From assembly GCF_988243305.1 (NCBI RefSeq), contig NZ_OZ547136.1: DNA of 64,000 bases; one strand, written 5' to 3'. Position numbers: made by a program. Each line of letters begins with the position of its first letter. Position 1 is the first letter of the stretch. Of this stretch, positions 60,201 through 63,200 are shown one piece after another.

Positions 60201-63200
60201 GGCACCTTTGTCATCCTGCTACAGTCTTCGCTATTTTTACGTCTGCTGGGCGAGAAAGGGGTGAATGCACTTGAACGCCTGATGGGATTGATTCTGGTGA
60301 TGATGGCGACCCAGATGTTCCTCGACGGCATTCGAATGTGGATGAAGGGGTAACGAGGAGAGTTTTTCGAAAAGAGCCCGGTAGCGTCACAACTACCGGG
60401 CGAACAAACTTAACTCAACAGCTGGAAAGCAATCATCCCAACGATGGCACCAACAGTGCCGAGGATGGTTTCCATCATGGTCCAGGTTTTCAGCGTTTCG
60501 GCTTCGGTCGCGCCGGTAAATTTACCGAACAACCAGAAACCGGCGTCGTTAACGTGGCTGACAACAATCGAACCACCGGCGATACAAATCGACAGCGCCG
60601 CCATTTGCGCACCGGAGTAGTTCAGTTGTTCAATAACCGGCATCACCAGTCCCACCGCCGTTAAACAGGCAACGGTGGCAGAACCCTGAATGATACGCAC
60701 CGCCGCAGCCAGCACAAAGCAGGTGATGGCAATCGGCAGGCCCATGCCGGTTAACGCTTCGCCCAGTGCCGGACCTACGCCAGAGTCAACCAGCACCTGT
60801 TTGAACACGCCGCCTGCACCAATCACCAGCAGAATGATCCCCGCCGGTTGCAGCGCGTGACCGCAAATCTCCATCACTTTGTCTTTTGGCATGCCCTGAC
60901 GCATTGCCAGGCCATAAATCGCTACCAGACAAGCAACCAGAATCGCGGTAAACGGATGACCAATAAACTCGAACCATTCGTAAGCGGTAGAGCCTTCTGG
61001 CACAAAACGCGCGGCAATGGTTTTCAGCCCTACCAGCACCAGCGGCAACAGGATCAGCGACAGGCTGAATCCGAAAGATGGCATTTTGCCTTCGCCGAGA
61101 TGCGGTTCGCTGATGTCGTCAGGAATATGCAACTCCACGTAGCGGCTGATGAAATTACCCCACAGCGGCCCGGCAATAATCATTCCCGGAATTGCCGCAC
61201 ACAGGCCAATCAGGATCATCCAGCCAAAGTCGGCGTTCATCTGCGATGCCAGCAGCATTGGCGCTGGCCCCGGTACCAGGAACGCAGCCGCGGCCGCCAC
61301 GCCTGCGAATAATGGGATTACCAGTTTCACCAGGTTCGTACCGGTGTGGCGCGCCATTGAGAAAGCAACGCTAATCAGCAGAACAATCGCCACTTCAAAG
61401 AACAGCGGTAGCGCACAAACCAGCCCCGCAAGGCCGATGGCATAATGTGCTCGGCTGTGACCGAAGGATTTGAGCATTTTGACGGCAATCTGATCGACTG
61501 CGCCAGTTTCATGTAAGATCTTGCCAAACATAGCTCCCAGGGCGACAACCACCGCCAGGAAGCCGAGGGTGCCTCCCATCCCTTTTTCCATCGTCGCTGC
61601 GATTTTATCGAGCGGCATACCGGAAAAAAGGCCAGCCCCCATGGACACCACCATCAAAGCCAGGAAAGCGTGCATACGCGCCTTCATGACTAAAAACAGC
61701 AGCAGTAAAACAGACCCTACTGCTGTTAAAACAAGCGTTAATGTAGTCACTACTTATTTGCCTTTTTTAATAACCTCAATGGTGCTTGCCACAACACCTT
61801 CCAGCGGTTGATCGATATCCACCACCAGTACATCGGTTTCGTCCGCACCCGGCTCCTGCAGCGTTTCAAACTGCGTCACCAACATTTGGGTTTTAAAGAA
61901 ATGGCCTTTGCGCGCTTTCAGGCGGTTTTCAATCACATCAAAATCGCCTTTCAGGTAGATGAACGAGAGATTCGGATTACCCGCGCGTAGCAGGTCGCGA
62001 TAGTGTTTTTTCAGTGCAGAACAGACAATCAGCGACACTTTATTAGTGCGCTGCATAGCAAACGCGGCGTCGTTCAGCGCCTGCAACCACGGTTTGCGAT
62101 CGTCGTCATTCAGCGGTTCGCCAGACGCCATTTTTTCGATATTGCAGCGCGGATGGAGGAAATCGCCATCAAGAAACGCGGCATGAAGTTGATGCGCCAC
62201 TTCACTGGCGACCGCAGATTTGCCGCTGCCCGATACGCCCATCAAGACGTAAATGTGGTGATCATGGTTAGTCGTGCTCAAAGTGGTGCCCCCACAATAC
62301 AAGAATTAAAAATGTTACGGGTAACTGTTATCGGTAACATTGTCCGGCCGGACAATATCAGAAGCAATATCCATCCGTGCCTTAAGTGTATAAGTGTGAG
62401 CTACTTCAAATTTGTGGGCTTAAATAGATCCGCCCGGTGACAAGGTGAAACCTAAATCTAACATTTTCGGTGTCACAGATTCGCCACGAATACGCGCCAG
62501 CAGGCGTTCAGCGCCAATACTGCCCATCCGCTCACGCGGCGTCAGTACGCTCGCCAACCGTGGTTCCATCACCTGACCAATGTCATGACCATGGAAACCG
62601 GCAATCGCCATATCGTCAGGAACTTTCAACCCCAGACGCTGGCATTCAAACGCCGCGCCGACCGCCAGGTCATCATTAGTACAGAACACGCCATCCAGCT
62701 GCGGATATTCCCGCCTCGCCTGGCGAATCAGTTCAATACCGGAAGAGTAAGAAGAAGATTGCTCAACCATCACGCTATACGGCACCAGGCCTGCATCCAG
62801 CATCGCCTGTTCGTATCCCTTCTGTTTGATGATAGTACGTTCGTCGAGACGTGCGCCGAGATAGGCAATGTGGCGATGCCCGCGAGCAATAATGGCGGTG
62901 GTCATCTGGCGTGCCGCTTCAAAGTTATCAAAACCGACGGCAATATCGAGGCACGGCGACTTGCTGTCCATCAACTCCACCACCGGAATCCCCGCCACTT
63001 CAATCATCTTTAAGGTGCGCGGCGTGTGGGTACGTTCGGTGAGGATCAGTCCGTCGATATTCCATGAGAGCATTGATTCGAGGCGTTCTTGCTCCATTTC
63101 CGGTTTATAACCGTAGTGGGCCAGCATGGTCTGATAACCGTGCGCGTCGGTGACGCTTTCGATTCCGCGTAATACTTCCGCGAAAACCTGGTTGGTGAGA

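What the first reader, a model, noticed from the sequence alone, without database searches (positions are those of the whole stretch)
62312..62340. Overlapping tandem GntR operator palindromes upstream of gntK
ATGTTACGGGTAACTGTTATCGGTAACAT contains two GTTAC...GTAAC palindromes sharing the central region, just upstream of the TTG-initiated gntK. Related half-sites occur upstream of gntT (20906-20926 and 21045-21065), consistent with one repressor controlling both gluconate loci in the window.
Basis: partly seen in the sequence, partly recalled or inferred. Interest (0 to 1): 0.2.

Follow-up and report, generated by a model that had tools for sequence, protein, structure and literature searches.

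The report
Known GntR operator pair at gntK

Summary
The 29-mer is at 62312-62340 exactly as quoted. The window is E. coli chromosome, and gntR, gntK and gntU all lie on the minus strand. On the gene strand the element reads ATGTTACCGATAACAG (site A, 62340..62325) and CAGTTACCCGTAACAT (site B, 62327..62312). These are two 16-bp matches to the published GntR consensus ATGTTACCCGTAACAT. They overlap by 3 bp and their centres are 13 bp apart.

Within 3 mismatches the consensus occurs at only four places in 64 kb, against 0.42 matches expected by chance. Two are these sites.

In 80 other Enterobacteriaceae species the 29-mer is essentially invariant while its flanks diverge. A conserved -35 (TTGCTT), -10 (GACAAT) and CRP-like site sit in fixed register with it, which puts site A over the inferred transcription start and site B just downstream.

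The literature I could read names site A as a functional, gluconate-responsive GntR site. It also states that the 13-bp-overlapping GntR sites upstream of E. coli gntKU were demonstrated experimentally.

Verdict: supported, already known, low interest.

The parts
62325..62340 (-). GntR operator site A, ATGTTACCGATAACAG. It is the promoter-proximal site and overlaps the last 2 nt of the inferred -10 and the inferred transcription start.
   Evidence: 3 mismatches to the consensus. Identical to the GntR recognition site used and validated in PMC10450161. Invariant in 81 sequences.
62312..62327 (-). GntR operator site B, CAGTTACCCGTAACAT. Its centre is 13 bp downstream of site A's centre, and it shares 3 bp (62325-62327) with site A.
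   Evidence: 2 mismatches to the consensus. Conserved at a constant 13-bp offset in all 80 related species. This architecture is described for gntKU in PMC4052901.
62339..62344 (-). Inferred -10 hexamer GACAAT of the gntK promoter.
   Evidence: GACAAT in 74 of 80 species, at a fixed position abutting site A. Inferred only: the transcription start was not mapped here, and the generic promoter scan did not call this promoter.
62362..62367 (-). Inferred -35 hexamer TTGCTT, 17 bp upstream of the -10.
   Evidence: TTGCTT in 76 of 80 species in an ungapped register with the operator. Inferred.
62395..62410 (-). CRP-like site TTTGAAGTAGCTCACA. Its centre at 62402.5 is about -70.5/-71.5 from the inferred start.
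   Evidence: 1 mismatch to TGTGA-N6-TCACA. At the same offset from the operator in 74 of 80 species. CRP-type matches are not enriched in the window overall (23 observed vs 26.7 expected), so the support comes from conservation and position.
61754..62281 (-). gntK (gluconokinase), TTG start, the regulated gene.
   Evidence: RefSeq annotation of an identical locus. Pfam SKI/AAA_33 kinase fold. TTG start in 73 of 80 species.
60410..61750 (-). gntU (GntP-family gluconate transporter). It begins 4 nt after gntK and is presumably co-transcribed.
   Evidence: Annotation. PF02447 at E=2e-168.
62420..63415 (-). gntR, the LacI/GalR-family gluconate repressor that binds the sites.
   Evidence: Annotation. 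PF00356 LacI HTH plus PF00532. Closest solved chain is 3h5o, 'Transcriptional regulator GntR', followed by CcpA, PurR and LacI. Found upstream of gntK on the same strand in 79 of 80 species.
20906..20921 (+). gntT operator 1, ATGTTACCCGTATCAT. Its last 6 nt, TATCAT, are the predicted -10 of the gntT promoter.
   Evidence: 1 mismatch to the consensus. Promoter scan gives TTCTCA-18-TATCAT at 20892-20921. The same 16-mer is used as 'E. coli GntR operator' and represses in a cell-free system (bioRxiv 10.1101/2023.01.10.523462).
21047..21062 (+). gntT operator 2, ACGTTACCCATAACAA, in the 5' leader 20-35 nt before the gntT ATG (21082). Its centre is 141 bp from operator 1's centre.
   Evidence: 3 mismatches to the consensus. 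Sequence read. gntT is a GntP permease.

Best explanation
The 29-bp element is the operator of the E. coli gntKU promoter.

It consists of two 16-bp pseudo-palindromic sites for the LacI/GalR-family repressor GntR, which is encoded immediately upstream. The sites are offset by 13 bp and share 3 bp. Site A abuts and overlaps the -10 hexamer and covers the transcription start. Site B covers roughly +6 to +21.

Without gluconate, GntR dimers occupy the element and keep RNA polymerase from forming a productive open complex or escaping, so gntK (gluconokinase) and gntU (transporter) stay off. Gluconate binding to the GntR sugar-binding domain releases it. Full activity then also needs cAMP-CRP at a class-I-type site about 71 bp upstream of the start.

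The same repressor recognises two separate sites at gntT in this window, and sites at edd and idnK/idnD elsewhere. The loci therefore form one regulon.

Shown here: sequence match, statistical specificity, location, extreme cross-species conservation, and the family of the repressor.

Taken from the literature: physical binding, gluconate response and repression.

Inferred: the exact transcription start, the CRP class, and whether both sites are filled at once.
For: - Sequence and statistics: 4 distinct consensus sites in 64 kb, all at gntK or gntT, against 0.42 matches expected by chance.
- Identity of the locus: 100% match to the gntR-gntK intergenic region, present in 5424 of 5426 complete E. 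coli genomes.
- Stability within E. coli: the 29-mer is unchanged in divergent strains, and the SNPs fall in the flanks.
- Conservation across 80 Enterobacteriaceae species: 27 of 29 columns are at least 99% identical. Mean information is 1.93 bits against 0.88 bits in the flanks. The 13-bp offset never changes, while the distance to the gntK start varies from 47 to 179 nt.
- Promoter register: -35, -10 and the CRP-like site are conserved in fixed register with the operator.
- Repressor: LacI-family, encoded upstream in 79 of 80 species.
- Specificity outside the window: in 29 kb of K-12 sequence, the only matches within 3 mismatches lie at edd (two) and in the idnD-idnK intergenic region (one).
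- Literature: site A used as a gluconate-responsive GntR site, abolished by deletion or by a 2-bp central insertion (PMC10450161). The gntT 16-mer represses in vitro and is relieved by gluconate. PgntK, PgntT and PidnK are each repressed more than 5-fold by GntR (PMC13386637). The 13-bp-overlapping GntR sites upstream of gntKU are stated to be functional, citing Tsunedomi 2003a (PMC4052901).
Against: - None of the primary footprint, gel-shift or primer-extension papers could be read. These are Izu 1997, Peekhaus & Conway 1998 and Tsunedomi 2003a. Binding at these exact bases therefore rests on secondary citation plus the synthetic-biology use of site A.
- The transcription start is inferred, and the generic sigma-70 scan does not call this promoter because its -35 is weak.
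- CRP-like matches are not enriched in the window as a whole.
- Ravcheev et al. note that overlap at 13 bp is hard to reconcile with known LacI-family DNA complexes. Simultaneous occupancy of both sites is therefore unproven.
Confidence: 0.93

Rival explanations
1. Only one GntR dimer occupies the element at a time. Either one of the two sites is the real operator, or the two overlapping registers are mutually exclusive alternatives that raise overall occupancy. Under this reading the 'tandem' look is partly a by-product of nested symmetry.
For: The sites share 3 bp. Ravcheev et al. say that dimers at this distance cannot interact and that the overlap falls inside the zone of base contacts. 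In mammalian switches, two or three tandem copies of the site did not improve performance over one.
Against: Both sites, including their non-consensus positions, are invariant in 80 species, and the 13-bp offset is fixed. The only variable position is the dyad centre (A in 60%, T in 40%). That change swaps one consensus match from one site to the other, as expected if both registers matter. PMC4052901 reports the arrangement as demonstrated functional at gntKU and conserved in more than half of GntR-regulated operons.
Confidence: 0.12
2. The palindrome acts at the RNA level, as a hairpin plus U-run that terminates or attenuates read-through transcription from gntR, rather than (or as well as) acting as a protein-binding site.
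For: On the gene strand the 29-mer is a long imperfect inverted repeat followed by TTTTTAATT.
Against: The terminator scan finds nothing. The RNA fold of 62295-62365 gives z = -1.77, with 13 of 200 shuffles folding as well, and the operator hairpin is not part of the centroid structure. There is no Rfam match. The T-run is not conserved outside Escherichia, while the 29-mer is. A transcript starting near 62332 would lack the 5' arm.
Confidence: 0.03
3. The element is mainly the target of the paralogous regulator IdnR/GntH, which cross-regulates GntI genes, with GntR secondary.
For: [quoted passage not shown] A related site with a half-site 13 bp upstream lies in the idnD-idnK intergenic region.
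Against: gntR is the syntenic neighbour in 79 of 80 species. Deleting or restoring gntR alone switches PgntK more than 5-fold, and more than 1000-fold through an inverter. GntR fusions bind site A directly.
Confidence: 0.03
4. Chance palindromes with no function.
For: None beyond the general abundance of short palindromes. A looser half-site pattern is only mildly enriched, at 24 observed against 13.4 expected.
Against: 0 of 100 shuffles reach the observed count for the full consensus. The element is invariant across genera against diverged flanks.
Confidence: 0.005

Closest known systems
E. coli K-12 gntKU promoter-operator (two GntR-binding elements; Izu et al. 1997 J Mol Biol 267:778; Tsunedomi et al. 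2003 J Bacteriol 185:1783, as cited in PMC4052901)
   Same: It is the same locus. The 29-mer is base-for-base identical in a K-12 derivative (C600), in O157:H7 and in the window. The flanking genes gntR, gntK and gntU are the same.
   Different: Nothing inside the operator differs. The window differs from K-12 at two flanking bases (62346 C vs T, 62377 C vs T), and the first of these makes TTGTCCGGCCGGACAA a perfect palindrome in this strain.
gntT operators of E. coli (Peekhaus & Conway 1998 J Bacteriol 180:1777; Porco et al. 1997)
   Same: Same repressor and consensus. They are present in this window at 20906-20921 and 21047-21062. One site overlaps core promoter elements, and a CRP-like site lies about 71 bp upstream of the inferred start.
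   Different: At gntT the two sites are separate, with centres 141 bp apart, and there is no partner site at a 13-bp offset. From memory, that paper proposed looping between them. At gntK the two sites overlap with centres 13 bp apart.
Class of overlapping LacI-family sites spaced about 13 bp apart (Ravcheev et al. 2014, PMC4052901)
   Same: Two LacI-family sites with 13 bp between centres, conserved among orthologous operons. gntKU is the paper's cited experimental example.
   Different: None. This element is the type example. How the proteins occupy such sites is left unresolved in that paper.
lac O1 / PurR / CcpA operators (solved LacI/GalR-DNA complexes)
   Same: It works like them. A dimeric HTH-plus-hinge repressor binds a 16-18-bp pseudo-palindrome at or near the transcription start and is released by a small sugar ligand. 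GntR aligns over its full length with PurR, CcpA and LacI chains.
   Different: It has a different half-site (ATGTTAC), and two overlapping sites instead of one primary operator plus distant auxiliaries. No GntR-DNA complex appeared among the PDB matches.
Bacillus subtilis GntR and the GntR/FadR family (PF00392)
   Same: Same name and same physiological role, a gluconate-inducible repressor of a gnt operon.
   Different: Not homologous. The window's GntR has a LacI-type HTH (PF00356) and a periplasmic-binding-protein fold, with no PF00392 domain. GntR-family operator motifs do not apply.

Membership tests
E. coli GntR (LacI/GalR-type) operator | 16-bp pseudo-palindrome matching ATGTTAC-NN-GTAACAT | tested here: met
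   Site B has 2 mismatches and site A has 3. Chance expectation is 0.42 matches per window, and 0 of 100 shuffles reach the observed count. The consensus and site A are quoted in PMC10450161.
E. coli GntR (LacI/GalR-type) operator | Lies in the promoter region of a gluconate-utilisation gene, positioned to block RNA polymerase | tested here: met
   The pair lies 31-59 nt upstream of the gntK TTG and abuts or overlaps the conserved -10 GACAAT. The transcription start itself is inferred, not mapped.
E. coli GntR (LacI/GalR-type) operator | Cognate LacI-family repressor gene is present | tested here: met
   gntR lies at 62420-63415 (-). It has PF00356 and PF00532, is annotated as GntR, and is syntenic in 79 of 80 species.
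E. coli GntR (LacI/GalR-type) operator | Conserved in orthologous loci (phylogenetic footprint) | tested here: met
   27 of 29 columns are at least 99% identical in 81 sequences from about 30 genera, while the downstream flank drops to 30-60% identity.
E. coli GntR (LacI/GalR-type) operator | Physical binding by GntR, released by gluconate | not testable with these tools
   Literature only: PMC10450161, bioRxiv 10.1101/2023.01.10.523462, PMC13386637, and PMC4052901 citing Tsunedomi 2003a. The primary papers are not held.
13-bp-overlapping LacI-family double sites (Ravcheev 2014) | Two sites of one LacI-family factor with centres about 13 bp apart, conserved among orthologues | tested here: met
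   The centres are at 62332.5 and 62319.5, giving 13 bp. The offset is identical in all 80 species.
GntR/FadR-family (winged-helix, PF00392) regulator site | The regulator carries the PF00392 winged-HTH domain | tested here: not met
   Pfam finds only the LacI HTH and periplasmic-binding-protein domains.
Intrinsic (rho-independent) terminator | Stable G+C-rich hairpin followed immediately by a U-run | tested here: not met
   No terminator-like site is called. Fold z-score is -1.77 and the operator hairpin is absent from the centroid structure. There is no Rfam match.
Class I CRP-activated promoter | CRP site centred near -61.5, -71.5 or -82.5 from the transcription start | tested here: inconclusive
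   TTTGA-N6-TCACA (1 mismatch) is centred at 62402.5, about -70.5/-71.5 from the inferred start, and sits at a fixed offset in 74 of 80 species. However, the start is inferred, and CRP-like matches are not enriched in the window.

The most novel reading that the evidence does not exclude
The only open point is the binding mode. The element may be occupied by two LacI-type dimers at once, on sites that share 3 bp and are rotated by about 86 degrees. That would need an unconventional geometry or DNA distortion, for which no structure exists. Ravcheev et al. 2014 explicitly leave this unresolved. The absolute invariance of all non-consensus positions across about 30 genera suggests the exact composite sequence, not just two degenerate sites, is under selection.
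Probability: 0.25. Interest if true: 0.35.

Novelty: already known. Interest (0 to 1): 0.08.

Why it matters
As a discovery it matters little. This is a textbook regulon element of E. coli K-12, already catalogued and already used as a synthetic-biology part.

It has two modest uses. First, it is a clean positive control showing that the first-stage reader can recognise operators from raw sequence. Second, the comparative data here are an unusually sharp phylogenetic footprint for the 13-bp-overlap class of LacI-family sites, whose structural binding mode is still unexplained. Those data are a 29-mer frozen across about 30 genera, with only the dyad-centre base toggling between A and T.

Tried and rejected
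- Primary papers. Peekhaus & Conway 1998 (PMID 9537375, PMC107090) and Tsunedomi 2003a (PMID 12618441, PMC150117) are not held, and I did not find Izu 1997. The first four-term literature search returned nothing. I relied on secondary sources instead.
- Generic sigma-70 scan of the gntR-gntK spacer. It found only an irrelevant plus-strand hit. The gntK promoter was inferred from cross-species conservation instead.
- RNA-level reading (terminator, attenuator or leader). Rejected because of no terminator call, a non-significant fold and no Rfam family.
- CRP consensus scan. Matches are not enriched in the window, so the CRP site is supported only by its quality, position and conservation.
- Looser half-site pattern TGTTAC-N3-TAACA. 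Only weakly enriched, at 24 observed against 13.4 expected, so it is uninformative beyond the four real sites.
- A 13-bp-offset partner at either gntT site. By eye on the sequence, none is present.
- The perfect palindrome TTGTCCGGCCGGACAA (62341-62356) as part of the element. It is imperfect in K-12 and O157 and poorly conserved between genera, so I did not include it.

Full report
**Observation**

The relevant genes are on the minus strand. They are gntR (63415..62420), gntK (62281..61754, TTG start in the RefSeq annotation of an identical locus) and gntU (61750..60410).

On the gene strand the element is ATGTTACCGATAACAGTTACCCGTAACAT. It resolves into two 16-bp sites:
- Site A: ATGTTACCGATAACAG (62340..62325).
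- Site B: CAGTTACCCGTAACAT (62327..62312).

The two sites share 3 bp and their centres are 13 bp apart. The outer half-sites are perfect (ATGTTAC and GTAACAT). The inner ones are imperfect.

**More than chance?**

The published GntR consensus ATGTTACCCGTAACAT (quoted in PMC10450161), with up to three mismatches, hits four distinct places in 64 kb. Two are these sites. The other two are 20906-20921 and 21047-21062, just upstream of gntT. Shuffles give a mean of 0.42 matches, and none of 100 reach the observed count.

In a further 29 kb of K-12 sequence fetched for comparison, the only matches within three mismatches are two at edd and one in the idnD-idnK intergenic region. Those are other known GntR targets. 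A looser half-site pattern is barely enriched, so it is the full 16-bp pattern that is specific.

**What the locus is**

The region 62200-62500 is 100% identical to the gntR-gntK junction of many E. coli chromosomes and is present in 5424 of 5426 complete genomes.

- The upstream gene product is a LacI/GalR-family repressor, with a PF00356 HTH and a PF00532 sugar-binding domain. Its closest solved relatives are a structural-genomics 'GntR' (3h5o), then CcpA, PurR and LacI. It is not a member of the GntR/FadR (PF00392) family, despite its name.
- gntK is a P-loop sugar-acid kinase.
- gntU and gntT are GntP permeases.

**Comparative evidence**

Among divergent E. coli strains the 29-mer is unchanged, and the SNPs and one indel fall in its flanks.

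A scan of one genome per species with the GntK protein returned 80 enterobacterial loci: Escherichia, Salmonella, Citrobacter, Klebsiella, Raoultella, Enterobacter, Kosakonia, Kluyvera, Buttiauxella, Leclercia, Lelliottia and others. The results are as follows.

- Every one carries ATGTTACCGATAAC[A/T]GTTACCCGTAACA upstream of gntK.
- Anchored on the element, 27 of 29 columns are at least 99% identical. Mean information is 1.93 bits against 0.88 bits in the flanks.
- Identity collapses to 30-60% immediately downstream.
- The distance to the gntK start codon ranges from 47 to 179 nt, while the 13-bp offset never changes.
- The single variable internal column is the dyad centre (A in 60%, T in 40%). 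An A/T swap there moves one consensus match from one site to the other, which is what is expected if both registers are under selection.
- gntR lies upstream on the same strand in 79 of 80 loci, and the start codon is TTG in 73 of 80.

**Promoter context (inferred)**

Three elements sit in fixed, ungapped register with the operator and are conserved:
- TTGCTT (62367..62362) in 76 of 80 species.
- After 17 bp, GACAAT (62344..62339) in 74 of 80 species.
- A CRP-like TTTGA-N6-TCACA (62410..62395) in 74 of 80 species.

Reading the first two as -35 and -10 puts the transcription start near 62332. Site A then spans about -8 to +8, site B about +6 to +21, and the CRP site centre falls at about -70.5/-71.5.

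The generic promoter scan does not call this promoter, because the -35 is weak. CRP-like matches are not enriched in the window as a whole. These assignments therefore rest on conservation and geometry, not on mapping.

At gntT the scan does call TTCTCA-18-TATCAT. Its -10 is the last six bases of operator 20906-20921. A two-mismatch CRP-like site at 20849-20864 sits about 71 bp upstream of the implied start.

**Mechanism**

The best-supported account is the standard one. In the absence of gluconate, dimeric GntR occupies the element and sterically blocks RNA polymerase at the gntK promoter. Gluconate releases it, and cAMP-CRP then activates. The same repressor acts on gntT through two separate sites whose centres are 141 bp apart.

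The literature I could read supports each functional step:
[quoted passage not shown] It is inactivated by deletion or by a 2-bp central insertion (PMC10450161).
- The gntT 16-mer confers GntR repression, relieved by gluconate, in a purified cell-free system (bioRxiv 10.1101/2023.01.10.523462).
- PgntK, PgntT and PidnK reporters are each repressed more than 5-fold by GntR, and PgntK is the tightest (PMC13386637).
- Ravcheev et al. [quoted passage not shown] They add that the arrangement is conserved in more than half of GntR-regulated operons in gamma-proteobacteria (PMC4052901).

**Rivals**

- An RNA hairpin or terminator role is not supported. There is no terminator call, the fold z-score is -1.77 with the operator hairpin absent from the centroid, there is no Rfam hit, and the T-run is not conserved outside Escherichia.
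- A primary role for the paralogue IdnR/GntH is unlikely, given the gntR synteny and the gntR deletion and restoration data. Cross-regulation is documented by the title of Tsunedomi 2003a.
- Stoichiometry is the one genuinely open point. Ravcheev et al. note that the overlap falls within the base-contact zone of known LacI-family complexes, and that dimers at this spacing cannot interact. Whether two dimers bind at once or the registers are alternatives cannot be settled here.

**Limits**

The primary footprint, gel-shift and primer-extension papers were not available. Base-level protection and the true start site are therefore taken from secondary sources or inferred.

**Verdict**

- The genes are on the minus strand.
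- The gntT elements are full sites, not half-sites.
- One palindrome arm is GTTAT.
- The repressor belongs to the LacI family.

The feature is already known in detail, so interest is low.

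Noticed in passing
window 38494-48339: A chaperone-usher fimbrial gene cluster of about 10.8 kb lies between glpD (36467-37987) and glgP (48824-51271). It has fimbrial subunits, two PapD-type chaperones, and an usher gene split into an N-terminal part (45968-46720) and a C-terminal part (41478-43385). Two transposase genes split it: an rve/IS3-type at 44536-45426 and a DDE_Tnp_1 type at 43437-44654. The fimbrial operon is therefore probably inactivated. From memory, the position matches the lpf (long polar fimbriae) insertion site, and K-12 has only a short spacer here.
   Followed up: partly
window 62341-62356: A perfect 16-bp palindrome, TTGTCCGGCCGGACAA, lies immediately upstream of the operator, in the spacer and -10 of the inferred gntK promoter. 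It gives the most stable local RNA hairpin (centroid -12.8 kcal/mol). In K-12 and O157 it is imperfect (CCGGCTGG), and it is only loosely conserved between genera. It could contribute to ending gntR transcripts, but it has no U-run.
   Followed up: partly
window 62326 (column 14 of the 29-mer) across loci L005-L084: The dyad-centre base of the operator pair is the only polymorphic internal position (A in 60% of species, T in 40%). The swap converts CAGTTAC into CTGTTAC, improving site B by one match while worsening site A by one. This zero-sum toggle is consistent with both registers being used.
   Followed up: yes
L086 8494-8522 (MG1655 idnD-idnK intergenic region): The GntR/IdnR-type site ATGTTACGCATAACGT is preceded, exactly 13 bp upstream, by a lone consensus half-site (TTGTTAC). 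This echoes the 13-bp offset seen at gntK.
   Followed up: no
L085 9578-9593 and 9800-9815 (MG1655 edd region): There are two consensus-like sites. ATGTTACCGGTAAAAT lies in the zwf-edd intergenic region. TTGTTACGCGTAACAA lies just inside the 5' end of the edd coding sequence.
   Followed up: no
L001 4731-5301 versus window 59760-60353: Downstream of gntU, strain FDAARGOS_497 carries a RecQ-family helicase gene where the window has the yhgN-like membrane protein ORF. The gntU-distal junction is therefore a variable point among E. coli genomes.
   Followed up: no
window 20849-20864: A CRP-like site, TATGACCAACCTCTCA (2 mismatches), is centred about 71.5 bp upstream of the start implied by the gntT -10 (TATCAT, 20916-20921). 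This is the same activator geometry as inferred for gntK.
   Followed up: partly
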